In this document: piece by piece, positions 15,114-45,878 of the stretch
Layout of the letters: every line of letters begins with the position of its first letter
How positions within the stretch are numbered: position 1 is the first letter of the stretch
DNA from: the human T2T-CHM13v2.0 reference genome, Homo sapiens
NCBI RefSeq assembly: GCF_009914755.1
Contig: NC_060947.1
Direction: 5' to 3' (one strand)
DNA: 64,000 nt
Made by a program: the position numbers and the translations under genes
Notes under the pieces: model-generated
Database searches by the model: none
What the model was told of the DNA's origin: nothing
The model's input: only the letters and a program-made list of their open reading frames with translations

Positions 15114-15610
15114 GATTAAAGCTCAGATTCAGGATGGTGGGCAGGGGAGATGGCCACAGTGTGGACTTGGGACCCTGACTGCTGCTGGAGAAGCAGCCCA
15201 TGTGTCTTTGGGAAGACAGAGGTTCCGGTCTCCCATCCTGGACCCCACAGGCTTCCCTTGGCCACCCAGGGATCAGGCAGGACTAGAGCTGGGCAGCCAA
15301 GAGACAGACAGAGCTGACCCAAGGCACCAGAGTGTCAGGTGCAGAAGGGACCCGCAGGCTACCTGCCCTCCTTGGTCAGCCCTTCTCTCTCCAGGCCCTT
15401 ACCAGGCTCAGGCTAGAAAAGCTTTCAGATTACCTGTTATCACCCTCTCTCCCTGCTGCCAGGTTTCCCTCCCCAGCCTTCCTGCCCAGTGCTCCCCATG
15501 TATCTTCCAAGTGGGCTAGGATGGATCTGGAAGCTCCCTTCCTCTCTCTGCAGGCACAGGATTCCACTTGTCAGAACGTTCTTTCTGCTGGTGAGCCAAG
15601 CCTTCTCCCT
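15114..15610 (+). repeat. Outer inverted duplication, left arm (partner 45383-45878)
   Basis: Hand alignment to the reverse complement of 45383-45878 gives about 48 differences over ~490 bp. The shared ORF peptide LELGSQETDRADPRHQSVRCRR appears on opposite strands. Confidence 0.95.
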
Positions 15611-15627
15611 GCCTCTCTCTCCCACAT

Positions 15628-15870
15628 AATTTTATTGATATATAATTCACATTCCATACAAGTTTCCCATTTACAATGCACAATTTAGTTTTTTCCATTT
15701 ATTTACAGTTGCCCAACCATCACCACAATCAATTTTAGAAAATTTTCATGAACCCAAAAAGAAATCCTGTACTTATTTGTAACCCATTCCTCCCCACCAC
15801 CTAAGCCCTAGGCAGCTACTTTTCTACTTCTTGTTTCTATTGATTTTTCTATTCTGGAAACGTCATATAA
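15628..15870 (-). mobile_element. L1M 3' end fragment
   Basis: ttttattgatatataattcacattccatacaagtttcccatttacaatgcacaattt... antisense L1MB-type tail. Confidence 0.75.
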
Positions 15871-16192
15871 GTTTGGGTAGCATGGGTTTGATCCACCTTC
15901 TCTGGGAAACTTTGGGTAAGTCACTTCACCTCTCTGTGATTCAGTTTCCCAAGCATAAAAGCAGAAATATTGGTTTCTACCTCATAGGGTCATGATGAGG
16001 CTTAAATAAGCTAATGCATGTAAAACACTTAGCAGAGGGTTTGCTTTTATTACTGCTTTTTATAAAGTGATTTTCCTGATTACTGCTGTCATCCTTAACT
16101 GGTGTGTTCTCATTGGGATGGGGTAGAGTAGGACATGGGGGTGATAATGCAAGTATTTACATAATATCCAATATATTTAATAATGCATTAAA

Positions 16193-16421
16193 GCAAGTTT
16201 GTCCAAACCATGGCCCATGGGCTGCATGTGACCCAGGATGGCTTTGAATGTGGCCCAAAACAAATTTGTAAACTTTCTTAAAGCATTAAGAACTTTTTTC
16301 GTGATTTTTTTTTTTAGCTCATCAGCTATCATTAGTGTTAGTGTATTTTATGTGTGGCCCAACACAATTCTTCTTTGTCCAATGTGGCTCAGGGAAGCCA
16401 AAAGATTGGATACCCCTACTG
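16193..16421 (-). mobile_element. MER30 hAT MITE
   Basis: ttgtccaaaccatggcccatgggctgcatgtgacccaggatggctttgaatgtggccc...gaagccaaaagattggatacccct. Confidence 0.85.
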
Positions 16422-16659
16422 ATTAAAGCGTGGACATAATCCATCAGAATGTGTGAGCAATGATGAAAGTCCTGTGGTATTTCTGTTGGGTCTGGCACTA
16501 ACCCACCAATTTCTGATCTATAGAAAAGTCAAGGGTCCAGGATATTACTAGTGTAACAGAGGAGGAACTTGGAGGGTTCTCAGCTGCTGCCATATACTAA
16601 TCGGCCTGGAAGGATTTTAATATTTTAATACTCAGTATGGCCATGCCATCATATGCTGG

Positions 16660-16915
16660 CTGTACATTGGGCTTGTGTAGGACTGTCATCTTCCTTGCTA
16701 TGGACACCACACTTTTGGTTATAAAACTACTGCATCCTCACTGCTTTTTTGGCAGCTACACCACACTGCACTGAGGCCTGGGGTTGAAGCCCTCAAGTCT
16801 TTTCTATTCAGGTTGCTGCTAAGTTCCATCATCCCTTAATAACCCCTACTAGGTTGTGTTTTGGGCCTATGTTCAGAATCTTAGATTTCTAAGTGTGATT
16901 CATGTTGATTGTTAA
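16660..16915 (-). mobile_element. L3/CR1 LINE fragment
   Basis: Reverse complement reads gtgtggtgtagctgccaaaaaagc...gtggtgtccatagcaaggaagatgacagtcc, matching CR1 ORF2 3' consensus style. Confidence 0.6.
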
Positions 16916-17767
16916 GCTCCTTGAATTAGGGTGTGTACTTTATACCAGACATAATAAAGGGGCTTCAAGGCTTCCAGGCAGGCAGGCAGAGCTGGCAGTG
17001 GCAGCAATGACACCTGTCCCTACATATGTTCTTTGACTCCTCAGAAGTGGAAGGGACTCTGTTTAGCCTTGCCCTTGACCATGAAATTCGAATATGCTAC
17101 ACATTGAGAAAAGAGGAGAAGGCCTGAGGGAAGAGAAGGAGATGAAAGACTATTAAAAAGGATAAAATCTCCAATCTATATAGAGATGTGGCAAAGCCAT
17201 ACCAATTCTAGTTCCAAGCAGTTCTTCAGGTAAAGGCTGATTTGAAAATAGCAGCTAGGAAGGCGGCTTCAGAAGTGCAAGCAGAACGAGCTTCAGGCAA
17301 AGCAGAGACATTCCAGGAAATTTAACTGAAAAGGAGAGCAAGGTGACTAGGAAAATGACCCTGAAATGAGGACAGCATATGGGCTTCTGGACGGATGGTA
17401 GTGTGTGAGGTATTGTAGGGGGTGGCAGCAAGCACAGGTAAATGGGGTGGATGGAGGTGGTGTCTGGAACTTGTTTCCTGGGGCCCAGGCAAAGCAAGGT
17501 ATTTCAAATCTTGTCATAGGGAGGGTTGGGTTTTGTTTTTTGTTTTTTGTTTTTTGTTTGTTTGTTTGTTTGTTTGTTTGTTTTTTGCTATTGGTCTGGC
17601 TAGCCTTTCAATGATACAGCAAGTGAGGAGAAAAGGCAGCCAGCGCAAACAGCCAGGGCATGGCTTTATCAGGGCTGAGGGCAGACAATCTGATGAGCCA
17701 GTGTGGTGATTTGTGTAGCCTGTCTAGTGAGGAAGGGAGAGGCTTTTTCTAGCTAAGCAGCTGGTAT

Positions 17768-18457
17768 TGTAACTGTCCCGTGGGTTCACCTTGCCTGCTG
17801 CCTAGACAGAGCCGATTTATCAAGATAGAGAAATTGCAATAGAGAAAAAGTAATTCACTCAGAGCCAGCTGTGCAGGAGACCAGAGTTTTATTATTACAC
17901 AAAGCAGTCTCCCTGAACATTTGGGGATCAACGTTTTTAAGGGCAACTTGGTGGGTGGGAGGAAGCCAATGAGCTGGGAGTACTGATTGGTCAGGTCAGA
18001 GATGAAATCACAGGGAGTCCAAGCTGTCTTCTTGCACTGAGTCAGTTCCTGGGTGGGGGCCACAAGATCAGATGAGCCAGTTTATCAATCTGGGTCGTGC
18101 CAGCTGATCCATCAAGTGCAGGGTCTGCAAAATATCTCCAGCACTGATCTTAGGAGCAATTTAGGGAGGGTCAGAATCTTGTAGCCTCCAGCTGCGTGAC
18201 TCCTAAACCATAATTTCTAATCTTCTGGCTAATGTTAGTCCTACAAAGGCAGTCTAATCCCCAGGCAAGAAGGAGGTTTGTTTTGGGAAATGGCTGTTAT
18301 CATCTTTGTTTTAAACTATAAACTAAGTTCCTCCCAAAGTTAGTTCAGCCTACGCCCAGGAATGAACAAGGACAGCTTAGTGGTTAGAAGCAAGACGGAG
18401 TCAGTTAGGTTAGATCTCTTTCACTGTCTCAAGCATAATTTTGCAAAGGCAGTTTCA
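17768..18457 (-). mobile_element. 3' LTR (LTR8)
   Basis: Reverse complement starts TGAAACTGCCTTTGCAAAATTATG...GAGACAGTGAAAGAGATCTAACCTAAC, the LTR8 start. Confidence 0.9.
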
Positions 18458-18470
18458 ATCCCTCCCTTTG
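18458..18470 (-). promoter_or_regulatory. Polypurine tract of the provirus
   Basis: Minus strand caaagggagggat directly precedes the 3' LTR. Confidence 0.8.
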
Positions 18471-19321
18471 CGTTTTATAACACCTTGATCTTAAGGTGTT
18501 GGCTAATGAAGATGGAAAAAGAGCAAAGACTACTCTAACTTCTTCCTTCTGATCAGGGGTGTAGTGGAGGTAGGTGTTGACCCCAAGGTGAGAGGATTAG
18601 GACCACTTTGCCACTGTCTGAGCACACTCATGCAGGCCTGGCTGGGGTTCCAAGGCTTGCATCGTGAAGGTGTTAGTATTGTCATCTATAGTTTTAGTAC
18701 TGCATTTAAGGGAACAGCATACTATAAGGTAAATAATGTGTACTAGGGTAAGGAGTGCAATTCCCAGTTTTAAAAGTAAAGATCTGAAAGCATTAGTTTG
18801 GGGACTTGTAGCCCACAAAGAATTTAGGATTTAGTCCAAACTGCAGAAAAAACTCAAGAACAGCTAACAAGAGGTGTACTATAGTTTTTCTTTTGAAGCA
18901 TAATTTTTCTCTCTCTAGTCCTCATTTTTATTAAAAACAAATCATGATAGAATTGATTTGTTTATAAAATAAACTTTAGTCTTATTGTACTTGGCCTGAT
19001 TATTTGCATAAAGTACAGCAAGAATAATTATTTTTCACATAGACTTTTAAAATTGGCTTTGATGGAACTCTGTTCCGTAAGGAATCTCATATAAAGCTTT
19101 TTTAAAGCTGAGCCCAGCCATGGGTTTGTACCCTCAAATACCTATGATTTGGGTAAATTCCCTTCCTTTTGAGGTCCCAAGATAACTTGGGGCTCCTGGG
19201 CCTCTCAGAAAGTGACATTCTTTACTTACCACAGGTCAGGAACCTTGTACAGGGACTGTGTAGACAAGGTATGAGGCCAGATTCCCCAAGGGGTTATTAC
19301 TGGCTCTGTAAGTCAACTTTG

Positions 19322-19621
<300 letters not shown>

Positions 19622-20075
19622 AACTTTGATTCTTTAAAGAAAGCATACCATTCCAATGAAAGCCTTGGTAAAATAACCAGTTTCTCCAAATGTGTCTGTT
19701 ACAAAAGAAAACAGATTTTTATTGCACGTATGCAAATAACTATACTGCCATAAGTTGAGAATACTCACAAATAGTTTCCAAATTTTGGAGAAATCAGGTA
19801 GAGGGAAACAAATATGCTCCCAATTTTGTTTGCAGGAGTACATTTTACTCAATTGTTAAAAGCTGTAAATAGTTCAAAAGAAAAGCCTTCTTGACTCTGG
19901 AAAACATAAAAGGATTAGCAATGTTTTAAGTGAAAAGTCAAAAAAGATTACTTCAGCCTTCTATTTGAAAGTGTTTCCTCTATTGTAATGTGACGATTTC
20001 CAGAGTTATCAATCAGAAACTTGCATTTAAGAGCACCTGATAGAGTTTCATAGCTGATTATAAAACCATCATTTA

Positions 20076-20398
<323 letters not shown>

Positions 20399-21970
20399 TC
20401 AAAACAAGACAAGAATTGTCTGTGGATGACAAAAAGATTAGGGCAGCCACAGTTAAAGACAATTGACAAGGAAATTTGTTACCTCCGTGGCACACAATAA
20501 TTTAACATAACAATTATAATTATTACTGATAATATACACTAAGTCATATCAGAATTATAGGAGTTTCACATAATTTTGGAACATATAACAATAACACATT
20601 TACACAAATATAGCCCACAGAAAGTCAAGCACCATTTCATATTTGGCAATGCTTCCTGTATGATTTTTATATCAAATAAGCCAAATGTGTCATTTTTGGA
20701 CTTCAGAGGGCCTAATGTCTAGAGGATTAATTAGGTCAGAAAATCACATACTTTATAACTAAGCTGATTTTTGAAAGTCTGTCAAATATCAAAGGTTTAA
20801 AACACTGGATCTCACAAAATAGGATCACAGCTTATTTATTTATACTAAGCGGTAACTCAAAAAAAATTTTTTTAAAGGCAAAAATCTTTACTCTGATAGA
20901 AGAGACTTAGCTTTCCAAACAAGACCCAATGAAGATAACAAGAGGCCAACTGAATTTGTTTCTTTTCTGTCCTTTTTTCCCCCTCCCACTTACCCAAAGG
21001 GGCAAACAAAAACCTTTCATTATATTACATAAAAATCTTTTCCAAAAAACCAAACTTCATGTTTGCATGAGTACATCTTTCATGCTAAAGCTGGTTTTTA
21101 CATAAAATTTTATAAATCTATCCAGTTTTAATTAATTTGACTATAAGGTAAGATTTTCACAAATGTTTTAGAACCCTTTATAATTTTCCATTAAATAGTC
21201 CATTAATGTTCTAAGAAAACCCTGTTATTCAGACACATAGGCCCAGATTCTGACCCCAAATCATTATGATTTTAATGTTTTAACCTACAGGAAAAAAATT
21301 AAATAATCCCCTTCAAATCTTAGCCAATTTGCTCATAACCACAGAGCTTTCTTTACAAGACCAACCCTTCACAAACCCTTTTCACTTTGCTTAAACCTTC
21401 AGTTTTGTCTCATTACTCTTTTAGGTTAAGATAATCTTTAAAACCCTATGAACTATACAAAATTACATTCCCATTAAAAGAAGCCATATTCCCATGCCTT
21501 CTCATAATCTTTTACCAAAAACTCATTCTACTTTCCTTACATACCTTGTATGTAAAACTGTTTCTCCAGTAGTCTCAATAACCTGTTACAATGTTAACTC
21601 TTAGCAACTTTTACTTTTGGTGAAAAACCTAAGAAGCAATTTTAATTATGTACTAAGGGTGGAACCTAGGACATTATACAGAAGTGAAGATAAGGTATGA
21701 CTCTTTCTAGCATAGGTAGTGGGAGCATGGCTAACTCCACATGTCCCCAGGCCTTATCTAGAATCTAATGCTCCAAAGTAGATAAATTGAACAATTTTCA
21801 AAAGTCAAAGAAGCAGTTTATGATCTTAAAGCATTTAGCACAACTGATATCTGACCTTAATTTAGACCAAATGTCTATGTTTTGAAGACATTTTATTTTA
21901 CCAATAATCTTTAAAACTGTCTTTATTTCCAAAAGATTACTAAAGTCATGTGAACAAAATAGCATTACAG

Positions 21971-22284
21971 TTTATTTTTATTTTTATTCATTTTTTTTTT
22001 TTTGAGATGGAGTTTCACTGTTGTTGCCCAGGCTGGAGTGCAATGGTGCGGCTTGGCTCAATGCAACCTCCACCTCCTGGGTTCAGGCAATTCTCCTGCC
22101 TCAGCCTCCTGAGCAGCTGGGATTACAGGCATGTGCCACCACACCCAGATAATTTTGTATTTTTAGTAGAGATGAGGTTTCTCCATATTGGTCAGGTTGG
22201 TCTCAAACCCCCAACCTCAGGTGATCCACCTGCCTCGGCCTCCCAAAGTGCTGGGATTACAGGTGTGAGCCACCATGCCCAGCC
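21971..22284 (-). mobile_element. Alu inside ERV
   Basis: Antisense Alu dimer with T-rich head. Confidence 0.95.
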
Positions 22285-22940
22285 CTAAAGTTTCTATTTT
22301 TATAACAAAATATTTGACTTAAGTGCTTATTTTCCTAAGCCAATTAATTAGAGCTCTTTTATATAAACATCACACACATAACACATACAAATAGACAGAC
22401 AGAAGATCCAGTAGTTGTAAGATTTTTCATTTGCCAGATTCTTTATTGGATTACAGGCTTCAAGGTGGAGCCCTTGGAGAAACAGGGCCAGGAAACCATG
22501 CAGTTTCTAGGGCCTAATAAAGAGACACAGATGAAAGGCAAAGATAGATCCCCAAAATTAAGGGTGCCATTTTATACTGGATCCTGGATCCCCAAAAAGG
22601 AGGGAAAACTATGGGAGAAGACAGTGCAGTGCTTCTACCGTGCCTTTCATTGCAAGGCAACCCAAAGCCAACCAGCCCATTTTGTAATCAGTTCATCCCC
22701 CATGGGAGTCTCATCTCTTAGTGGGGGTTTGGGATGTTTCCATCTATTCCAGGTGGCCAAAAGCATGCTTCTCTAATCGAAACATCAAAGAGCCAAGTAT
22801 CCCCCCATAACTGCCATTAACCATCCTCAAAAGTGTATTTCCTACCTAGTTATTACACACCAAGCTTCTTTCATAATGCAAAGTAATTTCTGGCACCCAC
22901 AAAGGTCAAAACCATCAACTAAGGCAATGCAAAACAGAAC

Positions 22941-23218
22941 AGAACCTTATATTTTGAGAGGGATCTATTCTCTTTCACTTCCTGGGCTTCTGTGAGGAAA
23001 ACAGAGGTTTTTCCCAGAATGGTCTCTGTGGTGCCTCCTCTGCTTTTCCCCAGGAGTCTCAGGCTGTTAGAATTATCTTAGAACCTTATATTTTGAGAGG
23101 GATCTATTCTCTTTCACCTCCTGGGCTTCTGTGAGGAAAACAGAGGTTTTTCCCGGAATGGTCTCTGTGGTGCCTCCTCTGCTTTTCTCCAGGAGTCTCA
23201 GGCTGTTAGAGTTATCTT
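22941..23218. repeat. 139-bp tandem duplication (2 copies)
   Basis: agaaccttatattttgagagg...ttatctt at 22941-23079 and 23080-23218, about 4 mismatches. Confidence 0.95.
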
Positions 23219-23225
23219 AGGTTCT

Positions 23226-23860
23226 CCACTTTTACACTGCTGGTGGGACTGTAAACTAGTTCAACCATTGTGGAAGACAGTGTAGCGATTCCTCAAGGAT
23301 CTAGAACTAGAAATACCATTTGACCCAGCCATCCCATTACTGGGTATATACCCAAAGGATTATAAATCATGCTGCTATAAAGACACATGCACACATGTGT
23401 TTATTGCGGCACTATTCACAATAGCAAAGACTTGGAACCAACCCAAATGTCCATCAGTGATAGACTGGATTAAGAAAATGTGGCACATATACACCATGGA
23501 ATACTATGCAGCCATAAAAAAGGATGAGATCATGTCCTTTGTAGGGACATGGATGAAGCTGGAAACCATCATTCTCAGCAAACTATCGCAAGGACAAAAA
23601 ACCAAACACTGCATGTTCTCACTCATAGGTGGGAATTAAACAATGAGAACACTTGGACACAGGAAGGGGGACATCACACACCGGGGCCTGTTGTGGGGTT
23701 GGGGTGGGGGGAGGGATAGCATTAGGAGATATACCTAATGTAAATGATGAGTTAATGGGTGCAGCACACAAACATGGCACATGTATACATATGTAACAAA
23801 CCTGCACGTTGTGCACATGTACCCTAGAACTTAAAGTATAATAAAAAAATTTTAAAAAAA
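23226..23860 (+). mobile_element. 5'-truncated primate L1PA inside ERV
   Basis: ORF2 C-terminus MFIAALFTIAKTWNQPKCPS, 3'UTR and A tail; 18-bp TSD at 23208-23225 and 23861-23878 (1 mismatch). Confidence 0.95.
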
Positions 23861-24004
23861 AGAATTATCTTAGGTTCTTTCATGTAGGCATCAAGAGTGG
23901 CAAGAAGACAAAATGGAGAATAACAATTCAGTCTACCAAGAAGAATAAAACTTTTTTTCGGAAAAACGCAATCCAAGAAGAGGAAAAAGATAAAGTCCTT
24001 TTAA

Positions 24005-24337
<333 letters not shown>

Positions 24338-26088
24338 TAATTAAGAAGATTTTAACCACAGAGCTCCTTTTGTAAAAAAAAAAAAAAAAATTAAAATATT
24401 TTATTGCCAGACTCTAGCCAGGACAGTCAGTCAATATTTCTGGCTTTTGAACTTTACTGCAGGCAACCTCCCATGTGAAATTAATAAATTTTAACTAAGG
24501 TTATGACTTAACCACGGACACATACGGTGTCTCAAAGGAATGGTAAGCAGTTTTTTGTTTTTTTGTTTGTTTGTTTTTACCAAGACAAGAACAGAAGAAC
24601 AGAAGCTATCGATGGGTTAATAAAAAACCCTCAATAAATGGCAAAGTTACACACATAACAAACCAGAAATGAATTATTCCAGAAGCCAAGAATTGAATCC
24701 AGGCTGCCATTGTCAAAAAGACAAAGGCTTAGCTACTGAGTTATACAGCATTGAGCAGTTTCCATTGCTTTTCCCAGAAGAAGTCTAGAGCAGCTAATTT
24801 CAAGCTTGCAAAGGCTTTTAACTGCTCAAGATAATTTTTAGGGCTATGACATGAACCCCCAAATTCCTGTCCTCTGGATTGCAGAAACCAAGAGAAAGTA
24901 TCCCCACATGGTCACAAGGTTAAGCTCTTAAGGATACAAAACAAGACAGAGATATTTCATCCTGTATTCGTTTCAGGAACCCATTGCAAAGTTTTAACCA
25001 ACCAGCCTGCTGGGCTGGCTTGAAAAGCCACCCTTTTCTGTTTTATGGAACCATAGGCAAAAGATTGTCAATTTTGCAAGATGTTGCCCAACAGGCTGCA
25101 TGGGTAACCGAATTAACATTTTCCAGCCCAACAAAATACACGTAACAGAACAGACACTAGTCACCTCATTCAGCACCCAATATCAACCTGGCAAAGTTCG
25201 GACTTTCTTCTGTTGGTCCCTGTTGTCTTTGATCCACTCCAGGTGGGGAGGGCTGACTTCCAAATAATAATTCACAATGGGTGATCTTTGGGCAAGGCAA
25301 AGACCAGATAGTCACCCTGAGACAAGCCTGTTGAGCTTTTTTTAGGGCTTACCGAATGGAATGTGACCAGACAAATAAGGGGGTTCTCTGAGTTAGGCCT
25401 GCTGGACTTCCGTCAGCAATTCCTTCTGAGATCCCCTCCACGTATACAAATGCACACAAAGACAAGACAGACAGAAGGCCTTCCAAATCAGATCCTTAAC
25501 CAAGAACTCCAAGAATATCCCTTCCAAACTACCCTCCCCTTCTCTGTCTGAGAAATCTCCCCCAAATTTTCCTGATTGAGAAGTCTCCTGAACCAAGATT
25601 CTTCCTACTAGTTAGGGAAAGCCAACCGAGACCCTCCAGGAGCCGAACCAAGACAGACACCACCCAATGGAGCTACAGACAAACTGAGACCCCTGAAGGA
25701 GCCAAACCGAGACAGACATCCTGAGGTGGAGCTGCAAACAGACACCCCACAATGGGGCTACCAACACCCCACCATAGGGCTACAGAGCCAGTCAGGAGAA
25801 GGAAGGAGGCATTGGCAATGCCTAGGATACTCACCAACCCAGATACCCTGCAATGGGGCTACAGACCGACACCCTCTAATGGGGCTACAGTTATGGGATT
25901 CCTTCCCAGGACTATTTCTCCATTGCAATTAAATCCAATGCACATTGGGTCAGCAGCACCAGATAGAGCATAAGTAGAGAACCAGAGTCAGACCCCAGTC
26001 CAAGAGAACTAGGTGGCCACTTGGGCTGGCCTCTGGATCCATCGCCAGGTGGATGGCGATGAACCATGGGCAGGTAGCCACAAGGGCA

Positions 26089-26106
26089 ATCCCAGACGAG
26101 CTCCCA
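26089..26106 (-). promoter_or_regulatory. Primer-binding site, tRNA-Pro
   Basis: Minus strand TGGGAGCTCGTCTGGGAT is 16/18 identical to the Pro PBS TGGGGGCTCGTCCGGGAT and lies 4 nt after the 5' LTR. Confidence 0.85.
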
Positions 26107-26110
26107 AATT

Positions 26111-26836
26111 TGTAACCGCCCAGTGGGTTCACCTTGCCCACTGCCTAGACAGAGCCAATTTATCAAGACAGGGAAATTGCAATAGAGAAAAAGTAATTCA
26201 CTCAGAGCCAGCTGTGCAGGAGACTGGAATTTGATCATTACTCAAACCAGTCTGGAGCATATTACTCAAATCCAGAGCATTCAGGGATCAGACTTTTTAA
26301 GGACAACTTGGTGGGTGGGGGAAGCCAGTGAGCTGGGAGTACTGATTGGTCAGGTCAGAGATGAAATCATAGAGAGTCCAAGCTGTCTTCTTGTGCTGAG
26401 TCAGTTCCTGGGTGGGGGCCTCAAGATCAGAAGAGCCAGTTTATCAATCTGGGTGTTGCCAGCTGATCTGATCCATCAAGTGCAGGGTCTGCAAAATATC
26501 TCAAGCACTGATCTTAGGAGCAGTTTAGAGGGGGTCGGAATCTTGTAGCCTCCAGCTGCACGACTCCTAAATCATAATTTCTAATCTTGTGGTTAATGCT
26601 AGTCCTACAGAGGCAGTCTAGTCCCCAGGCAAGAAGGTTTGTTTTGGGAAATGGCTGTTATCATCTTTGTTTTAAACTATAAACTATTATAAACTGTAAA
26701 CTAAGTTCCTCCCAAAGTTAGTTCAGCCTACACCCAGGAATGACCAAGGACAGTTTGGAGGTTAGAAGCAAGATGAAGTTGGTTAGGTTGGATCTCTTTC
26801 ACTATCTCTAGTCATAATTTTGCAAAGGTGGTTTCA
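26111..26836 (-). mobile_element. 5' LTR (LTR8)
   Basis: Direct repeat of 17768-18457; 13 mismatches in the first ~130 bp compared by hand. Confidence 0.9.
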
Positions 26837-26890: not shown

Positions 26891-27173
26891 GTCCTCAGAA
26901 AGGCAATGGAGCAGTTCGGAAAAAGAAGGAAAAGGGTAGAACTGCAGCTTCTGTTTTTGCTCAACTCTGGCAGCTGAGTGTTGTGGGTGGGGTACTGGAA
27001 TTCAAGAGACCCTAAAATGCTCTCTGCAGACCTCAGAGCTGATGCCCACTGATGATGATTCCAATCACAAAATCTCAAACACTGTGCTATGAGTACTTGC
27101 TAATGAAAACCCTGTGCTGTCTAGCAGGGCAAGGGTGTGTTTCTTAGGTAAAACTTCCAAGTATAGTTGGGAT
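26891..27173 (+). repeat. Inner inverted duplication, left arm (partner 28329-28590)
   Basis: Aligns to the reverse complement of 28329-28590 at roughly 85%, e.g. tgattccaatcacaaaatctc vs gagattttgtgattggaatca. Confidence 0.95.
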
Positions 27174-28328: not shown

Positions 28329-28590
28329 ATCCAAACTATACTCAGGGGTTTTACCTGAGAAACACCCCCTTGCCCTGCTATTCAGTACAGGATTTTCATT
28401 AACTAGTATTCACAGCAGTGTTTGAGAGAGATTTTGTGATTGGAATCAGCATCAGTGAGCATCACCTCTGAGGTCTGCAAAGAGTGTCTTAAGGTCTCCT
28501 GAATACCAGCACCCCCCACAACACTCAACTACCAGAGTTGAGCAAAAACGGAAGCTGCAACTCTGCCCTTTTCCTTCTCTTTCTGAGGAC
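28329..28590 (-). repeat. Inner inverted duplication, right arm
   Basis: See 26891-27173. Confidence 0.95.
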
Positions 28591-34594: not shown

Positions 34595-35014
34595 TAATTG
34601 TAAATTTTAAAAGTAATATTTTGGCTGAGGCATCTGTGGGTTGCCAGTTCAACTTTCAGTGTTTTCAAGCAATGAGAAATGCTTTTTCAGCCTGAATTTC
34701 AAGCCAGGTGAAACAGAGATGAGCACCTTGTGTCTATCCTTCAGGTAGCCCCTAGACAGGTTAGAATAGACATACTCAGTAGTTTGGAAATAAGATCTCT
34801 GCTTCTCTTTCTGGAACCAGGGACCAAGATCCTATACTGGGAATGCGAGCTAAGACTACTGCCGCACAGAGGAGAAGGTGAGGGAAGGGCAAGTAAAAGT
34901 GCCACAGAGCTTCCCTACCACTTTGAAGTTGCATTTTTCATAATTAAGCATTCACTTGATTGGTTGTTGTAAACCCTTAATTGTTTTACAGAATTCTGAT
35001 AAACTGGTTCTTCT

Positions 35015-35670
35015 TTTTTTAAAAATTAGTATTTTTGGGTACATAGTAGATGTATACATTTATGGGGTACATGAGATATTTTAATATAGGCATACAATGC
35101 GTAATAATCATTGTTATAATTTGGACATTTGTCCCCACCCAAGCCTCATGTTGAATTATAATTCCCAGTGTAGGAGGTGGGGCCTGGTGGAAGGTGATTG
35201 GATCATGGGGGCAGATCCCTCATGGCTTGGTGCTCTCCTCGCTATAGTGAGTGAGTTCTTGTGAGATCTGGTCCTTTAAAAGTGTGTGGCACCTCTCCCC
35301 CGCTCCCTCAACCCCACCACTCTCTCACTCTTGCTTCTGCTTTTGCCATGTGATGTGCCTGTTCCTGCTTCACCTTCTGCCATGAGTATAAGCTCCCTGA
35401 GGCCTCCCCAGAAGCCACGTGATGCCAGTGCCATGATTTTACAGCCTGCAGAACAGTGAATCAATTAAATCTCTTTTTAAAATAAATTACCCAGTCACAA
35501 ATATTTCTTTATAACAATGCAAGAATGGCCTAAAACAGTCACATCAGGGTAAATGTGGTATCCATCACCTCAAGTATTTATCTTTTCCTTGTGTTACAAA
35601 CGATCCCATTATACTCTTTTAGTTATCTTAAAGTGTATGATAAATTATTGTTGACTGTAGTCACCCTATT
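35015..35670 (-). mobile_element. L1MA 3' end split by an MST LTR
   Basis: gggtacatagtagatgtatacatttatggggtacatgagatatttt...atccatcacctcaagtattta. Confidence 0.75.
35112..35537 (+). mobile_element. MST (MSTB-like) MaLR solo LTR
   Basis: tgttataatttggacatttgtccccaccc...ggaggtggggcctggtggaaggtgattggatcatggggg...caatgcaagaatggcctaaaaca. Confidence 0.85.
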
Positions 35671-37769
35671 GATTCTGATAATATTTGCTTTCTTTATGAT
35701 GTTTTTGTTAAAGGACAGAACTTCTGTAAGCCGTCTAGGTGATTCTGATGCAAGATCTTGTTTGAGAACCTCTGGTCTGACCTGCAATATGGCCTATAAC
35801 CTGTGGCTCATTTTCCTAATGCCGTAGCTAGAAACTTTGTGGCAATATCTGGCAGCACTGTATCAGGATTCTTTGAGAAATCCAGAACAGGTGTCCAGTA
35901 GTGAGTTGACCTCCACTCGTGTCTCCCTTTCCTACTGCTCCCAAGTGGAGAAGACAGTCATGTCACTCACCAGTGGCTCCACAGCCCTTATACTAGTGGA
36001 CTTTTACCTAGGTGAATCAATATCTGAGTAAATAAAGCCAGACCAGCTATGGCTGGACACAGATCTTGGCTTAACCCCATTCTACAGAGACAGGGTTGCT
36101 GGTCATAACAGCCATATAAAAGGCCATAGACCCCGAATTCAGAGATTGAAAGAAATTCAAGTAATTCTCAAATAAATGATGCTCTGGGGAAATGGAGACA
36201 CCTGAGTTTCCAAGTAGAAGAAGCTTGGATAATTGTTCTGTTTGTAAATGTGCAGGGTGAGGGCAAACTAGGGAATTTGTTCTGAAGCTTTTGCATAGCA
36301 AGCATACTATTTTGAATTAGGTTGTATGCTTTTCTGGGGACTTTGAGGGTGACTAATGGAGATCATAAGGAATTTAAAGTCCCAATCCTGCCCTAATGCC
36401 AACCCAGGTGTTTCTCCCCTAGCTGGCCCTAAATTCTCTTGGCCAATAATGACAAATCATGCAGAAATGGACTCGATTGGGTTGAGGAAAGAACTGGCCT
36501 GATGAGACAGCAAAAATCTCCAGCCTCACTGTCTAGGGTCAGAGTTCTCCTATATAAAAGTTAGAGATGAAAAGTCTAAACTGGAGTCACCAGACTTGAA
36601 ATCGTGTACACTCAGACCCCTGCACTCACGTGGTTCCCTAAGAGACCACATGCCACACCCCACACACATGCTTTGAGCTGAGACACAGCATTATTCTACT
36701 CTAAAACAACAACAACAAAGCATTTATTTCCAAAAAAGGGACAAGGTCACGAGAAAAGGCCTATAATAATTAACTAACTCAATGGAAAACTCATTTTTAA
36801 AATACCCCCCATGGAGTTTTAGGACAAAACAACAGCTTAGTGAATGTTTGGTTACAGTTTATAGCTATTTCTTTCGCCCTTGATACACTACTGTGATTTT
36901 TCAGCTTTCTCTGCCAATCTTGCTCAGCACTAGTGGTTCTAAGATTAAAGTCCAGGTATGTAAATGGAATAGCCCTATTTGCAGCCTTGGTATGTGGGCT
37001 CTTCTGAGCCTAGTGGCCCCTTTTGTTCATTTTTGTCAGTTGTTAGCCTGGCAAAGGGAGTAGGAACTATACCAGTTAGAAAAGTAGAGCCTATATCAAA
37101 CGTTCAATAGATGAAATTTAATAGAGAAAACATGTTGGGAGGGCTGAAAGGCCGAAGAAGAGAAAGCGAGGCAAGTCAGAGATCAACAATAGTAGAAACC
37201 TGCTTACTACCACTAGGGCTGCAAGAAGACAGGAAAGAGGTAGTGTTACTATAGCTCAGGTGCCAAGTTCATTGCAGAGACTGCCAGGTAAAAGCTATAA
37301 CAATGGAGGGAAAGTTTGTCATCAGAAACTAGAACTTAGGAGTAGACCCAGCCACAGCTAGAGATGCCACTTGAATTAGACGACACTGCTGGATACCTTT
37401 TGATTTTGACCAAGCAGCATCCATTCTCACTTCTTGTGATACCTACGCCATGATTTTCCTTTCCAGGGAACTCTTCCTAACCCATTGGGTACAGTTTTAG
37501 TAGTACTGTCAATCAGGGTGCTATGTCCAACCCTAGCCAAGGCATGGGTGGGCATATAATATAAAGTATGTCAAACACACCCTCTCTCAGGAATTTGAAT
37601 CTTGAGAATAAGGACAGAAAAATGTTGGAACTGTTTCAGCCATACTGTGGTACCTTGAAAAGACCATGCCTCTTTTCCTATATACCTAGATCCCCAGAGA
37701 CACTCTAGTTTGTATTTTATCCCTCCTCAAGTCTTTATCAATTTAGCCCAAGTTTTCGTAAGTCTGAAA

Positions 37770-38170
37770 AGTTTGAACTACAATGTTTGCCATGCCCCCA
37801 TACACCAAGTCCTTGTTTACAATCCTCAGAATGCCCTTATATGCCTCTGTGGCCTTAAGAGTGTCTACTCATCATTCAATAACCAACCCAGATATAACTT
37901 CTGTGAAATCTTTCCCAGTCCCTACCCTCTCAAGAAAAGTTTAGCACTTATCTCCTCTAGTTTCCCATGACACTCTATACATATTTCCGTTTCAGTACTT
38001 ATCATATTGAATTATTTTATGTTTACTTGTCGGTCTCCCTTCTAGATTGTGAGGTTAAGGGCAGGACCATGTCTTATTTTAACTGAGGATTCTCAGTACC
38101 TAGCTGCTTGGCACATAGTAAATGCTTATTAAAACATTTGTATGAATGTATGAATAAATAAATGGATAAT
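37770..38170. mobile_element. L2 3' fragment
   Basis: ctagattgtgagg...gggcaggaccatgtctt...tggcacatagtaaatgc...tgaatgtatgaataaat. Confidence 0.65.
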
Positions 38171-38521
38171 ATAGCCAGCATATCTCCATTCAATTATAGT
38201 ACAAGCCAGAGTTCTTTCTTTCTTTGCATTTAAAAGGGTTTGGAGCTCCTTAAGGGTTTAAAGGGGAGAAATGAGTCCAATATATGCTCCCAATAAGAAG
38301 AGATATAAAGAGATATTTTTATAAAGACAGGAGACAGAAATGACAGAAGGACATTATGGGGAGGAGACAGAGAGAATGTGAAGAGGGCAGTAAGGAGTAA
38401 CAGCCAATTACAAGGCTGTACAGGAAATACCATTTGGGGCATAGAGATATGCAGAGAGGTCTTAGTATTCCACTTGAGATGATGGCCAATATACTCCCTA
38501 GAGACTTGAGGGAGACAAGTC

Positions 38522-38918
38522 CAATGGTATGCTGGTAAATATTTAACAACCAGCTCTCTGGGGAAAAGGACTGTAATTTGTGGCATTTGTCATTTTCCTT
38601 CTTGTAAATACTACCACCATGGCCAATTTCAAGCTCTCCATGTGGCATCACTGAATGCAGAGTTGAGAAGAGATGCAAGCCATCATATAGGATTTCCGCC
38701 ATATAGATAAAAACAGATACAAATAACTTCAAAATCATAGATAACAGTAAATGTAGTAAAATAATTAATAAATGATGAGTGGGTATTTATTCTCTTTGAT
38801 TATAAGTTTATATAATTTAATTTGGAATAATGGTTGTATTTAATAGCCTCCTTGCGATCTTCCTGAAAATATAACTATCAGCTTTTATGAGCAGGTGTGG
38901 GCCAGTAACATACCACTG
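38522..38918 (-). mobile_element. MER63-type hAT-Blackjack element
   Basis: Imperfect TIRs caatggtatgctgg...acataccactg; internal aaatatttaacaacc. Confidence 0.75.
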
Positions 38919-39302
38919 CAGGTAGCTCTATCTGTGGACTACTTGGTGACTCAGATGCAGCCTGAATAGCTATAACAAAGTGAGATAAGGATTGCTGGTC
39001 AACTGTAGCTGTAATATGATCAAGAGGATCTAGGCCTACTAGGTGATTTCATGGTTCCCAGGAGAAAAACTCTACCTGGTAGCCTCAAGCACTAGATGGC
39101 CCCAAAACAGAATGCCTGTGATTCATTGTGTTATCTTCCTTAATGCTAAAAATTATCTTCATAATTCACTTTGAACTGGTGAGATAAACGACTTGTTCTG
39201 TTAAGAGCTGGATATCCCTGGACCAAGGTGGTCTTTATAGAGCTATGTTGAGAGCCATACTGTCTGATATTTGTGCAATCAACAATTTAACCTTCTTTAT
39301 AA

Positions 39303-39640
<338 letters not shown>

Positions 39641-39889
39641 AAATACTCTTCTTTTAATCAAATAGAGAAAATGGACACTGGTTCTGATTTGATGCATACA
39701 AGAAAAAGGTGGTAGCAATTACGATCTGCCAGAAAAGTCTCACCTTTGCAAACTCAAGTTGTCTTTGTGGTGAATTGGGCATATTACTAGTTCCTCATTT
39801 CAACATTATATTTTTGATCTTCCTTAATTTTGGGTTCCATCCTCACAGGACATTTTTAGTACTGAAAAGAACAAAAAGGAAATACAGCT

Positions 39890-40145
39890 CAATACCTGGT
39901 ATTGTAATTATAAATGCACCTACTACATGCTAAGCATGCTATTATACATCATCTCATTTAATCCTGAAAACAAAAACCAACTGGTGGGCACTATCATTTC
40001 CCCATCCTATAAATGAGGAAGTTGCAAATCAGGAAGGCCAAGTACCTTGCCCAAGATCACACAGCTTATGAGAGGAGAGCTGAGATTTGAAGCCAGATTT
40101 GTCTGAAACCCAAGTCTCCCAGGCTTTTGCACTACACCATGCTGC
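39890..40145 (-). mobile_element. MIR SINE
   Basis: ccttgcccaagatcacacagct...gagctgagatttgaagccag. Confidence 0.8.
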
Positions 40146-41699
40146 TTGAAGAGCCCTCTCCATTTCAGGAGGCTAGTCTTGGAGATTGGGTGGTCTGTGC
40201 ACAATATCAAAGGATAAATAGAAAGGCATGTGTCTTTCTGGAGAGTCACATGGGAATTCTGAATTCAGGGCCATAAGATTTAAAAGCACAATTCAGTACC
40301 CCACCTCCTTATATCAAACATATGGCCAATCTTAAGAGAACTTTAAACAAATATCTCCCTTTAAAAGCTGATACTTTAGGGCAACTTTGAAGCAAGCCAT
40401 TGGATACAATTAGATATCTTTGTTTCCTTTCTTTTATCCTTAATTCCCTTTCCTTGCCATATTTTGGAAAGGAATGCCTTTCCTGGCAGGCTAGCCTGCA
40501 CTTCTTGCTCAGCCTCAAAATCTCTTCAGCCTTCATCTCTGCTGTCAGATAGAAATTTCCTTTCTATTTTGTCTCTCCCTCTCATAGCCTGAAAGAACAC
40601 GTTAAGTGGAGGCAAGGAGGTAAAGGAGAGAAAGGTGATTTCTCTCCTCTAACATTTCTTCCTTCTTCCCTTCCATGAGTAAAAGAAAAAATGCCCCACT
40701 TATTAGGTTTACTCCAGTCATACAAAGTTTTATAGCCGTTTTGCCGGGACAGTTTTTCCTTGTGTGTGTGTATTTCCACCCCCGCTTCCCTATTAGAGTT
40801 CACTTCGCATTCCATCCTTCCACAAGAGTGCCTCAAGCAGGGAGTTGCTTACATACATTGCTGAGGTTACTGCTAAATTTCTTAGCTAGTTCCCCCTAGA
40901 AACAACTGACATATTTACAAACTGCTCTAGAAAATTGAAAGAGACCATATGTATTCCATCTGAACTAAATAATTCGAATAAAATTTGAACTGAAAATTAA
41001 ACCAGTTTTATTACAAGGCCCCTTCTATCTTCCTTTTTATTAGTGTCCTCTTCTCTTCCCAGCATCTCCCTTTCTCTGTTGCTAGGTGTTCTTCCCCCTG
41101 CAGCTCTGTCAGGAGCCCAAGAGCCCCTACCCCTAACCCCACCTCGACATTAAAACAAAACTGGCTGGAAGCGTGTAGACCAGTGGTCAGTGATTCTCAA
41201 CTCTGATTGCATGATGGAATCATCTGGGGACTTAGGAAAATCAATTGTCTATGGTGGAGCCTGGATATCAGTATTGTTTCAAAGCATCCTAAATGATGAC
41301 TATAATCCTATGGTCTGGCCTGTCTTTCCCACCCCAACTTTTTCCCTACAAAAATTTGTTCTAATCTATCAATTACTTGGGAAAAGATCTAATCAATTCA
41401 CCTGCAAAACGACATTGAAAACTGGCAGAAGCTTAATGTGCTAGTGTGTCAGTGGGATTTTCATTTTGATTATAAATTTTTTTTTAAAAAACTCTCACAG
41501 CAGAAATTCAGGCATGCAGGGATATTTTTGGGTTGGAGGTTTCCCAGTCCCCAGTCCATATTATATAGGTTAGTATTTTCCATGCTTTTGATACACACAC
41601 ACACACACATACACACACACACACACAAATATCCATTACAAGCTTTAAGAACAAGTAAACTGACTTTTAAAAATCAATGATAATAATTTTATTATAATG

Positions 41700-43620
41700 A
41701 TGACAATAATTTCTTTGCAATATTTCACCATGACACCTATATCTAGATAAATAATGACTGAGTTATAGGTTAGATTTGATATCCCTTTGGGTTCTTTTCT
41801 TAGCTGTATTTTCACTAAAAAAGAAAATTTTGATCCATGAATTTAAGTTGTTGGGAATGGCAGTGAGTATTTGGTGGCTTTGACAGACAGTTTTGGGTAT
41901 TTATATTTGAATGGAACATTAACCTAGAAATTATAGAATGATTTCTCACTAAAGACTACTTTCAATACTTCATTAGACAGGAAAATAATAAGCATTTCAC
42001 AATTAAAAGCTGAAAGGTTTAAATGTTTCAACTTGGAAGATGAATCTAATTATTTCTTTGATTACATATAGCTCTGAAAGGTGTTTTTTTCACATTTTGT
42101 TACAGCATGTGGATGAAGTTTTTTAAAAATGCCAAATTATCTTATTCATTAAGGGAAGATAATCATCAAATCAAAACTATTGCTGATTAAACCATTTGTA
42201 TCACATTTAAGTAATCCAAAGAAATCCTGATATCATAACATTTAATATTTAAGCCCTGAAGTGATAAGCTCAGGCTGTTGAAAATACAGAATGTATTGCC
42301 AAGTTATACCTCTTGAACAATTCAATTGAAATCATACAGATAATCTTTTCTGGTGTTATCACTGTTGTGAAGAAATGCTTTATGCTTCACCCTTCAAAAA
42401 ACTTGGGAGAATATCTTTCTCCTTGATAGCTCTCATAAATCAGTGTGAAAAAATAGATCTGTCCTATGCTATCCATTTCTTCACTTAGCATCATGAAAAG
42501 ATGAACATTTGATAGGAGATACATTGTCATAACTCCAATATTGATTCTTTTCTTCAACACTGAATCAAAGCCATGAGAGATATTATCAACCACTAATGTT
42601 TCTTTGACCACAACTTAGTATGAATTGACATTCAGACACAACTTCTTTATTCATGTGGCTGCAGCATCCTTCCTTATTGTGTGCATAGCTGCTGCTTTGT
42701 CAATATTAATTTCAGCCTGATTTTTTCCAGTCTTGATTCACATATCACAAAATGATCTTTAAGATAGTAAATATTATCTTCTCTTGAAGGATTGTTTTTG
42801 AATGATACATGGAATAAATGTTCACTAGCATTTCTGTTGCATATGTGTATCAGATATGTCAATTGAAAATATCCCATAGCATGTTCACATTCATGTATTG
42901 TTCTTTAATTCAATAATATTATCCAACATATGATAGTGATAAAGGAATTGTGCCAAAAATTCATTCTGAACTTTTTCTGAATATAATAGTAGCCATAAAC
43001 TCTTTCATTAGCGTTATAAATTCTTGGAAATACTGTTAGAACTAGTGCATATACTCTAAGCAGTGAAATTTTGGTTGATGCCATTGTAGTTTGGGCCTGT
43101 TATCTCCCTTTAGTAATAATATGCATCAATGTAGTATGGAAAACCATTATTTCTGCTTTTTCTGGAAACATTTGACTGATTACCAGAGAGGTCCCTGTGC
43201 TTTGTATGAAAATGTTGTGAAAGCTATTGTGGCATCGCTGGATAAAGTTTTACAACAGACATAATCTTCACCCAATAAAAGTCAGTGTTTAGATATTCAT
43301 TGTTTTAATTTCTCCTTAATTTCTGAGGCATTTTAAATTTGTTATATTAAATCATAATATTTGCATATTTACCGGTCCCAATGCATATATCTTCATATTC
43401 TATATTTACCCCAAATTCAAGTTCACTATGTTTTTAATGTTACCTTTAGTTACTACTGATTTTCATAACTGCATTTGTACTTGAATGAACCACTTTTGAG
43501 CCATTGATACATTTGGGAAATTAGGGATAAAATGGAAAACATAGTAACCATGAAACATGAAAAATTAAGAATATAACCAATGACAAGAGCAAATGTTACA
43601 ACATGAACAACAACTTGTTA
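41700..43620 (-). mobile_element. Probable highly degraded hAT transposase relic
   Basis: AT-rich block without recognisable SINE/LINE motifs. Minus strand near 42690 encodes DKAAAM, resembling the hAT D-G-A-x-x-M motif. Weak evidence. Confidence 0.35.
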
Positions 43621-43634
43621 GCTAAATGTTACCC

Positions 43635-44850
43635 CAGATGAACCAATCATATCCATAACCTCACATACTTATCATTACTTTGTGGTGAGAACGTTTAAAA
43701 TCTACTCTTTTTGCAATTTGAAATATACATTATTATTAAATATAGTCATGCTGTGCAATAGATCACTAGAACTTATTCCTTTTGTGTAACTGAACTTTGT
43801 ACCCTTTGATTTGCATTTCCCTTTTCCCTGTCTATCCCCCACCCCCAGCCTCTGATAATCACCATTCTACTCTCTACTTCTATGAGTTTGACTTTTTAAA
43901 ATTCCACATATGAGTGAGATCATGTGGTATTTGTCTTTCTGTGGCTGGCTGATTTCACTTAGCATAATATCCTCTAGATTCATTCATTTTGTCGCAAATG
44001 ACAGGATTTCCTTTTTAAAAAAGGCTTTAGTATTTAATTATATACATATACCACATTTTCTTTTGTAAAAGTTTTCAATTTTAATTTTTGTTAGTAGTAG
44101 GTGTATATATTTATGGGGAACATGAGATGTTTGGATTCAAGCATGCAATGTAAAATAATCACATCATGGAGAATGGGGTATTCATTCCTTCAAGCATTTT
44201 TTTTTGTAGAGATAGGGTCTCCCTATGTTGCCCATGCTAGTCTCAAACTCTTGGGATCAAGTGAGGCTTCTGCCTCTGCCTCCCAAAGCACTGGGATTAC
44301 AGGTGTGAGCCACTGCACCCAGCCATTTATCCTTTGTGTTGCAAGCAATCCAATTACACCATTTTTAGTTATTTTAAAATGTACAATTTATTATTGACTA
44401 TAGCCACCCTGTTGTGCTGTCAATAGTAGGTCTTATTCATTCTTTCTAACTATTTTTTATACCCATTAACCATCCCCACCTCCCTCCCAGTTCCCCACTA
44501 CCCTTCCCAGCCTCTGGTAACCATGCTTCTACTCTCTATGTCCATGAGTTCTATTGTTTTGATTTTTAGATCCCACAAGTAACTGAGAACATATGATGTT
44601 TGTCTTTCTGTGCCTCGCTTATTTCACTTAACATAATGATCTCCAGTTTCATACATGTTGCAAATGATAGGATCTCATTCTTTTTATGGTTGAATAGTAA
44701 GTACTCCATTGTGTATAGGTACCACATTTTCTCTATCCTTTCATTCATTGATGGACACTTATATTGATTCCATATCTTGTCTATTATGAATAGTGCTGCA
44801 ATCTCTTCAACATACTGATTTCAATTCCTTTAGATATGTACCCAGTGCAT
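43635..44850 (-). mobile_element. Nested L1MA-type 3' fragments
   Basis: Antisense L1 3'UTR/ORF2 end; ORF 44566-44748 (KMWYLYTMEY..KKNEILSFA). Confidence 0.85.
44197..44325 (-). mobile_element. Alu monomer (FLAM-like)
   Basis: Single antisense Alu left arm with poly-T head. Confidence 0.85.
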
Positions 44851-44925
44851 TCCTTGTATATGCACATGTACGTAATATGCATACGTATACAAGGAATGCA
44901 CTGGGTACATATCTAAAGGAATTGA
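44821..44925. repeat. Perfect inverted repeat: 40-bp arms, 25-nt spacer
   Basis: 44821-44860 is the exact reverse complement of 44886-44925. Confidence 0.97.
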
Positions 44926-45204
44926 GAGCCTATTAAGGCCATATTGGGATTTATAGAAAAAATCATGATTAGCCATATATAAGCTTGCCATTATATCCCA
45001 CAAGAGAGCATAGCATGTAAACACATTTCATTACCAGAAAGAAAAATATCACATACATGGGAAACTGAGTCTTAGAGAGGCAAAATGACTTACCCAAAGT
45101 TTTACGAGTCTGAATCAAGCCCAAGTTGCCCAAGTTGGGCATTTATATACCTCACTGTAGTACTTCTCAGACACCAGTATCAGCATCAACTCCTTTGGCA
45201 TTGA

Positions 45205-45590
45205 TGAAGACTGGCTGAAAGAGTTGAGAGTATTTTGTTTAGGGAAGAGAAGCCTAGCTGTGGAGCAAGATTGGCAGAGGTTGCTGTGTTCAAATATGTG
45301 AAGGGCATGCCTGAAAATAAGGAGCAGTTATGTCTGGGTGGTAGTCCGAGGACAGAACTTGAGTGAGTAGGAGGAAGTCATAGGGGAGCAGGCTTGGTTC
45401 ATCAGCAGGAAGAACATTCTGACAAGTGGAATCCTGTGCCTGCAGAGAGAGGCAGGGAACTTCCAGGTCCATCCCAGTTCAGTTGGAAGATATATGGGGA
45501 GCACTTGGCAGGAAGGCTGGTGAGGGAAAGCTGGCAGAAGGGAAAGAGGGTGGCAACAGGTGACCTGAAAGCTTTTCTAGCCTGAGCCTG
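45205..45590 (+). mobile_element. L3/CR1 3' end
   Basis: ggctgaaagagttgagagt...gaagagaag...gctgtgttcaaatatgtgaagggc...aggaagaacattctgaca follows the L3 3' consensus order. Confidence 0.65.
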
Positions 45591-45878
45591 GTGAGGGCCT
45601 GGAATGAGAAGGGCTGACCAAGGAGGACAGGTGGCCTGCAGGCCTCTTCTGCACCTGACACTTTGGTGCCTTGGGTCAGCTCTGTCTGTCTCTTGGCTGC
45701 CCAGCTCCAGCCCTGCCTCTTCCCTGGGTGGCCAAGGGAAGCCTATGGGGTGCAGGATGGAAAACTGGAACCTCTTCCTCCCAAAGACACACGGGCTGTT
45801 ACTCCAGCAGCAGTCAAGGTCCCAAGTCCACACTGTGGCCCCTTCCCCTGCCCACCATCCTGAATCTGAGCTTTAATC
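45383..45878 (-). repeat. Outer inverted duplication, right arm
   Basis: See 15114-15610. Confidence 0.95.

What the first reader, a model, noticed from the sequence alone, without database searches (positions are those of the whole stretch)
15114..45878. ~500-bp inverted duplication with arms 30 kb apart, ~90% identical
Seen: 15114-15610 matches the reverse complement of 45383-45878 (about 48 differences in ~490 bp by hand), with weaker similarity for ~50 bp further outward. About 200 bp is an L3/CR1 3' end and about 300 bp matches no repeat I recognise. Independent L3 copies are normally far more diverged and do not share flanks. Each side also seems to retain L3 sequence outside the shared core (16660-16915; 45205-45382). 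Inference: either a local inverted duplication, or two opposed L3s homogenised by gene conversion or recurrent inversion. The arms could be inversion breakpoints, paired regulatory elements, or a long-range RNA duplex.
Basis: partly seen in the sequence, partly recalled or inferred. Interest (0 to 1): 0.7.

Follow-up and report, generated by a model that had tools for sequence, protein, structure and literature searches.

The report
Fossil gene-converted inverted repeat on X
Two mirror-image 500-base copies lie 30 kb apart on the human X between SHROOM4 and BMP15 and are 90% identical; their flanks suggest the duplication is likely much older than that, so the copies were likely kept alike by gene conversion that later stopped, a tiny gene-free echo of the big X palindromes.

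Summary
15103-15609 matches the reverse complement of 45384-45889 (507 columns, 89.7%), and the genome search finds only these two copies. It is one duplicated segment, not two independent L3s.

The duplicate is longer than reported. About 250 bp further in, a second island (15873-15956 / 45053-45133, 78% identical) is also shared. Between core and island the right copy keeps the old repeat intact, while the left carries an old L1 3' end (21% from its family majority). The duplication therefore likely predates that L1, which predicts arm divergence of about 0.3-0.5. The core shows 0.11.

The differences are evenly spread and transition-rich, the longest identical run is at chance level, and the arms are the window's two most GC-rich 500-bp stretches. 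Best reading (0.6): an ancient inverted duplication whose uninterrupted block was homogenised by arm-to-arm gene conversion until roughly 40-50 My ago (inferred), then released.

No sign of current conversion, no listed human inversion polymorphism, and no support for an RNA duplex or a gene. No other mammal could be examined, so constraint and a single younger event remain open.

The parts
15103..15609 (+). Left arm core (about 307 bp unique plus about 200 bp old LINE 3' end, L3/CR1 by recall)
   Evidence: 89.7% to the reverse complement of 45384-45889; 2 copies in the genome; GC 57.8%, 3 CpG
15067..15102 (+). Weak outer fringe of homology, with an 8-bp tandem duplication on the left
   Evidence: Alignment; anchored extension reached by 14 of 400 random segments
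15627..15870 (-). Old L1 3' end, left copy only; replaces about 250 bp that the right copy keeps
   Evidence: 1274 candidates, best 39 non-self hits 70-80%; 50/240 from the majority of 29 hits; natural 3' end at 15627; 9-bp microhomology to the right copy at its truncated end
15873..15956 (+). Left inner island (MIR piece plus 5' flank); the MIR runs on to about 16035 on the left only
   Evidence: Reciprocal best match to 45133-45053 (4460 vs next 2502); only non-self genome hit spanning query 8-86; MIR alignment
16630..16915 (-).
   Evidence: Weak: 1 of 31 family loci clearly above controls
17768..26836 (.). LTR-bounded provirus in the spacer, used only as an internal clock
   Evidence: LTR pair 60/687 = 8.7% diverged; 4-bp target duplication; not different from the core divergence, p=0.48
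45053..45133 (-). Right inner island
   Evidence: 18 substitutions in 81 sites versus the left island
45206..45383 (-). Continuation of the old LINE beyond the core, right only (pre-L1 state)
   Evidence: Profile hit 45435-45206 crosses the core boundary, E 6e-12
45384..45889 (-). Right arm core
   Evidence: GC 56.5%, 1 CpG
45890..45923 (-). Right outer fringe

Best explanation
A segment of about 870 bp is present twice in inverted orientation 30 kb apart; it was likely duplicated before an old L1 landed in the left copy, and its 507-bp uninterrupted block was likely kept alike by arm-to-arm gene conversion until roughly 40-50 million years ago (inferred). Shown: two copies only; a 90% core and a 78% island in register; a left-only L1 between them; the ancestral repeat intact on the right. 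Inferred: the L1 insertion, with a deletion of about 250 bp joined at a 9-bp microhomology, cut the island off from the core; the 84-bp island was then too short to convert and diverged; the core went on converting and gained GC. Conversion then stopped, at about the time a 9-kb provirus enlarged the spacer (coincidence or cause unknown), and the arms have drifted neutrally since. No present function is required.
For: Common descent of the island: reciprocal best match in the window; only non-self hit of 5 to cover its 5' part; MIR part 36/43 identical, reached by 0 of 591 unrelated pairs, with 6 shared derived sites, reached by 4 of 591. L1 after the duplication: the repeat crosses the boundary unbroken on the right; the L1's natural 3' end sits at 15627 (3 of 406 copy pairs similar beyond it vs 241 of 406 beyond the truncated side); no close donor among 40 scored hits. 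Age gap: L1 K2P 0.245 (its hits 11-29% from the same majority) vs core 0.110 pairwise; P(<=51/506) is 2e-10 even at 0.12 per lineage and 8e-22 at 0.17. Core vs island p=0.004. Conversion rather than constraint: differences are even across 10 bins (p=0.99), equal in the unique and LINE parts (29/307 vs 22/200, p=0.65), with no codon periodicity (p=0.49); the in-core LINE is no closer to its family majority than other copies (0.53 and 0.49 vs 0.52+/-0.12; low power). The arms are the two most GC-rich 500-bp windows and are CpG-poor; in-core LINE GC is z=3.0 and 3.5 above a regression on 20 copies, vs 1.5 outside the core.
Against: No second species was available, so no arm tree exists. The island is short: its MIR part alone (7/43) is not more diverged than the core (p=0.20); the signal comes from the other 38 sites (11/38, p=0.002). 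The island is less diverged than twice the L1's own value (P=0.006 at 0.245 per lineage, 0.18 at 0.17). Polarised W>S changes show no core excess (18:4 in, 26:8 out). The GC excess falls to z about 2.4-2.5 on the best-aligned 83 bp, the two arms are not independent, and retained ancestral GC under constraint would look similar. Dates rest on recalled rates.
Confidence: 0.6

Rival explanations
1. One neutral event about 40-50 My ago made the 507-bp duplicate (staggered-break inversion or template switching). The island and L1 pattern has another cause, such as precise loss of the L1 from the right copy or a complex copy.
For: Core divergence equals that of the provirus LTR pair (p=0.48) and is uniform with neutral Ts/Tv. 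The MIR part of the island is not significantly older than the core. Staggered breaks are known to leave inverted duplicates (PMC2817401 passages). The right outer flank (51% GC) resembles the core more than the left one does (41%), while the distal inner sequence is native on the left, as an inversion would leave it.
Against: It needs precise excision of an old L1, or an L1 donor that is not seen. The whole island differs from the core (p=0.004). It does not explain the GC peak.
Confidence: 0.2
2. The duplication is old, and both cores are under purifying selection as paired regulatory elements for SHROOM4 or BMP15, which slowed their divergence three- to four-fold.
For: Same age gap as in the best explanation; GC-rich; gene-free interval 25-56 kb upstream of SHROOM4 and 40-70 kb upstream of BMP15 (annotation given with the finding).
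Against: Divergence is not patchy and is equal in the decayed LINE part. The LINE part is not closer to its family majority (low power). RefSeq lists no functional element here.
Confidence: 0.12
3. The arms pair as a long-range RNA duplex, and selection keeps them complementary.
For: The arms could pair on paper (duplex energy -982 kcal/mol; no control was run, and any 90% inverted repeat would do this).
Against: No transcript is annotated across the 30 kb; 0 Rfam matches.
Confidence: 0.04
4. Two independent, opposed L3 insertions were homogenised, and conversion spread into their flanks.
For: About 200 bp of each core is an old dispersed repeat.
Against: 307 bp of unique sequence and a separate MIR island are shared in register; unrelated copies are only 62-65% alike.
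Confidence: 0.03

Closest known systems
FLNA-EMD inverted repeat (HsInv0389 / palindrome P24; Caceres et al. 2007, seen only second-hand in PMC2817401 and PMC3961182 passages)
   Same: X-linked inverted duplicates around a spacer of tens of kb; reported present across placental mammals, with recurrent inversion of the spacer.
   Different: Arms are 11.3 kb and still active and polymorphic, with genes in the spacer. Here the arms are 0.5 kb and 90% identical, no gene is annotated, and no polymorphic inversion is listed.
Primate X-chromosome palindromes (Jackson et al. 2021; PMC8327919, PMC8981503)
   Same: Inverted arms on X; arm GC above flanks (46.3% vs 41.2% in human), attributed to GC-biased conversion.
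   Different: Defined by arms of at least 8 kb and at least 99% identity; 21 of 26 carry arm genes. This element fails both thresholds and looks extinct.
Terminator mutations of concerted evolution (Walsh 1987, as summarised in PMC3449122)
   Same: Large indels and mobile-element insertions break homology and release duplicates from conversion. The L1 here would be a partial terminator.
   Different: The idea concerns gene duplicates; this pair is non-coding, and release appears to have come in two steps.
Inverted duplicates at staggered-break inversion breakpoints (Ranz et al. 2007, via PMC2817401)
   Same: Short inverted duplicates flanking a segment.
   Different: One event predicts one age along the whole duplicate; core and island differ here (p=0.004).

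Membership tests
X-chromosome palindrome | Arms of at least 8 kb | tested here: not met
   507-bp core, about 870 bp in all; criterion
X-chromosome palindrome | At least 99% arm identity (ongoing conversion) | tested here: not met
   89.7%; longest identical run 44 bp, P=0.35 under random placement
X-chromosome palindrome | Arm GC above flanks | tested here: met
   57-58% vs 40% for the window; the two highest 500-bp windows
Inverted repeat under past concerted evolution | Arms more alike than the age of the duplication allows | tested here: met
   Core K2P 0.11 vs 0.34-0.49 expected from the left-only L1; depends on the inferred order of events
Inverted repeat under past concerted evolution | Arms cluster within lineage in a multi-species tree | not testable with these tools
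   The genome has no relatives here
Inverted repeat under past concerted evolution | W>S bias of fixed changes | tested here: inconclusive
   18:4 in the core vs 26:8 outside; the majority sequence is AT-biased
NAHR-mediated recurrent inversion (FLNA-EMD type) | Spacer polymorphic in orientation in humans | tested here: not met
   No row between chrX 47,811,385 and 50,964,482 in Table S1 of PMC10150506, 44 samples (32 of 85 chrX hits seen)
NAHR-mediated recurrent inversion (FLNA-EMD type) | Spacer orientation differs among mammals | not testable with these tools
   Macaque and ape supplements were unreadable; the gibbon file was cut when stored and gave no match
   2 matches
L3/CR1 LINE (200-bp part) | Match to the curated L3 consensus | not testable with these tools
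   No repeat library is held; shown only to be an old dispersed family (40 motif matches vs 0 control); the name is recalled

The most novel reading that the evidence does not exclude
A gene-free inverted repeat with arms of only 0.5 kb was held in concerted evolution for 50 My or more across placental mammals. It is still near-identical and flipping its 30-kb spacer in some non-primate lineages, and so toggles distal elements between SHROOM4 and the oocyte gene BMP15. It would be a miniature FLNA-EMD system that went extinct in simians, and the first of a class of fossil micro-palindromes datable by one-sided retrotransposon insertions.
Probability: 0.15. Interest if true: 0.7.

Novelty: new variant of a known kind. 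Interest (0 to 1): 0.42.

Why it matters
Described X palindromes are large and near-identical, and are thought to persist through selection on their genes (PMC8327919 passages). If confirmed, this element shows that arms about 16 times below the size cut-off, with no gene, can be homogenised over a long period and then released. It carries its own clocks: a one-sided L1, an isolated island and a provirus in the spacer. That makes the birth, partial termination and death of concerted evolution testable with existing mammalian alignments. In present-day humans it is most likely inert.

Tried and rejected
1. An outer colinear inverted match (7470-8143 vs 56002-55612) looked like a larger duplication. 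It is two LTR-type repeats at about 68% with unrelated flanks (MLT name recalled), so it was rejected. An Alu pair near the same diagonal (7768-8089 / 53312-52983, 73%) was not a reciprocal best hit.
2. Homology beyond 15067/45923: none. Searches with the left outer flank, the right inner flank and the distal LINE piece found only self, so no repeat spans a junction and the spacer's past orientation could not be read.
3. Recent conversion tracts: none (longest run P=0.35, sum of squares P=0.22).
4. Coding role: stop-to-stop frames of up to 163 and 156 aa exist, but substitutions show no codon bias. They were not searched against protein libraries.
5. Structured RNA: 0 Rfam matches.
6. The first LINE majority was Alu-contaminated at both ends and was rebuilt on masked, trimmed copies. 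The GC tests used 20 of 31 copies, those whose profile envelope reached the in-core segment. A plain in-minus-out GC difference was not significant (+0.06 to 0.08 vs range -0.08 to +0.12).
7. Print searches: SHROOM4+BMP15+inverted repeat, 0 papers; SHROOM4+intergenic+duplication+gene conversion, 0; SHROOM4+inversion+Xp11.22+breakpoint, 1 unrelated review by its listing; BMP15+upstream+enhancer+SHROOM4, 2, of which the one read had nothing on this element. The library lacks most subscription papers, and several supplements could not be seen, so a catalogue entry may exist.

Full report
Observation. Self-BLAST of the window finds 15103-15609 against 45889-45384 on the opposite strand: 507 columns, 89.7% identity, 51 mismatches, one gap. 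It is the longest inverted pair in the window. There are 36 transitions and 15 transversions, and each 50-bp bin has 43-47 matches. A search of the whole genome returns these two places only, also at E<=10 for the unique part with the right outer flank; the tool notes that such counts are lower bounds.

Anatomy. About 200 bp at the inner end of each core belongs to an old dispersed repeat. A 24-base motif from it has 40 genome matches against 0 for the control, and a profile built from 31 such loci hits 45435-45206 at E 6e-12, crossing the right inner boundary without a break. Unrelated copies align to the right arm's repeat at 62-65% (2 of the 3 tried). The L3/CR1 name is recalled. Outward, homology fades over about 36 bp (14 of 400 random segments extend as well) and then ends.

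The missed island. About 250 bp inward on both sides, nearly on the same diagonal, 15873-15956 matches 45133-45053 (score 90 vs a maximum of 48 in 200 shuffles). It contains a MIR piece, so I tested for chance. It is the reciprocal best match in the window (4460 vs 2502). Of 5 non-self genome hits, it is the only one that covers the 5' part of the query. Against a majority of 49 MIR-like hits, the two pieces are identical at 36 of 43 sites, which 0 of 591 unrelated pairs reach, and share 6 derived sites, which 4 of 591 reach. The duplicated unit is therefore about 870 bp.

The one-sided L1. Between core and island the left copy has 245 bp of an L1-type 3' end instead of the LINE continuation. 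Its best 39 non-self hits are 70-80% identical. It lies 50/240 (K2P 0.245) from the majority of the 29 hits fetched as loci; those hits lie 11-29% from that majority, biased low because they built it. Position 15627 is the family's natural end: 3 of 406 copy pairs are similar beyond it, against 241 of 406 beyond the truncated side. At the truncated side, the family sequence and the right copy share a 9-bp microhomology. Inference: the L1 entered the left copy after the duplication, and about 250 bp were lost with it or later. The reverse order needs precise excision from the right copy.

The age gap. If the copies split before the L1 arrived, they should differ by about 0.34-0.49 substitutions per site. 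The core differs by 0.110; P is 8e-22 at 0.17 per lineage and 2e-10 even at 0.12. The island differs at 18 of 81 sites (JC 0.26, interval 0.15-0.43), more than the core (p=0.004). Against this reading: the island fits 0.17 per lineage (P=0.18) but not 0.245 (P=0.006), and its MIR part alone (7/43) is not more diverged than the core (p=0.20).

Conversion or constraint. Core differences are even (10 bins, p=0.99) and equal in the unique and LINE parts (p=0.65), with no codon periodicity. The in-core LINE is no closer to its family majority than other copies are (about 53 sites, low power). The homogeneous block runs from the outer limit of homology to the L1, which is what conversion confined to the longest uninterrupted block would give; mobile-element insertions and large indels are proposed terminators of conversion (PMC3449122, passages). 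The arms are the two most GC-rich 500-bp windows of the 64 kb, with 3 and 1 CpG. In-core LINE GC exceeds a regression on local GC over 20 of 31 copies by z=3.0 and 3.5, against 1.5 for the continuation outside the core. On the best-aligned 83 bp the excess is z about 2.4-2.5, and polarised changes show no core-specific W>S excess. The GC evidence is suggestive only.

When it stopped. The longest identical run (44 bp) is at chance level (P=0.35), so there is no recent tract. The core's divergence cannot be told from that of the LTR pair of a 9-kb provirus in the spacer (60/687, p=0.48), which makes up 9,070 of the 29,090 spacer bases. About 0.055 per arm suggests 40-50 My at recalled rates. A review passage links 10% X-Y divergence to a split before the simian radiation (PMC3308322), a loose comparison. 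That the provirus ended conversion is speculation.

Inversion, regulation, RNA. Table S1 of the T2T inversion paper has no row between chrX 47.81 and 50.96 Mb (PMC10150506 supplement, 32 of 85 chrX hits seen). Cross-species catalogues could not be checked: the macaque map is described as covering the autosomes and its supplement was not searchable; the gibbon file was cut and gave no match on terms from recalled hg38 coordinates; the ape-genome supplement had no text; the ape sex-chromosome supplements gave only two rows in the last species' columns, which I read as siamang coordinates. The right outer flank is 51% GC and the left 41%, while the distal inner pieces are on the left. That would fit a past inversion, but no repeat spans a junction to prove it. 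Rfam has 0 matches, and no gene or RefSeq element is annotated.

Comparison. It works like the FLNA-EMD repeat and the X palindromes: inverted arms on X, higher GC, inferred conversion. It is not a member, since it has 0.5-kb arms at 90% against at least 8 kb at 99% (PMC8327919 passages; PMC8981503 abstract and one results section; PMC3961182 and PMC2817401 passages). Caceres et al. 2007 was not held and is cited second-hand. Four locus-directed searches found no description of this element; unseen supplements and subscription papers may hold one.

Verdict. A real, two-copy, probably ancient inverted duplication with an anomalously young core. Past gene conversion 0.6; one simian-age neutral event 0.2; constraint on both copies 0.12; RNA duplex 0.04; independent L3s 0.03. 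New variant of a known kind; interest 0.42. A multi-species arm tree would decide it.

Noticed in passing
window 17768-26836: Provirus with two LTRs (17767-18457, 26110-26836 by BLAST), 8.7% substitutions and a 4-bp target-site duplication; ERV1/MER4-like by recall. The listed RefSeq masked stretches cover only part of it.
   Followed up: partly
window 44821-44925: Perfect 40-bp inverted repeat with a 25-bp loop at the edge of an old L1 block. Perfect arms inside an old element suggest fold-back or template-switch repair.
   Followed up: no
window 7470-8143 and 55612-56002: Two independent MLT-type LTRs (name recalled) in inverted orientation, about 68% alike; the left one is split by an old Alu (7768-8085).
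   Followed up: yes
window 45928-46427: Right outer flank is 51% GC, single-copy and the fifth most GC-rich window; it may be the native flank of the core or a lost part of a longer arm.
   Followed up: partly
window 26916-27173 and 28329-28586: Inverted pair at 84% over 262 columns, about 1.2 kb apart; probably repeat copies, not examined.
   Followed up: no
window 16190-16420: Short DNA-transposon-like insert (MER30-like by recall) between the left MIR and the distal LINE piece.
   Followed up: no
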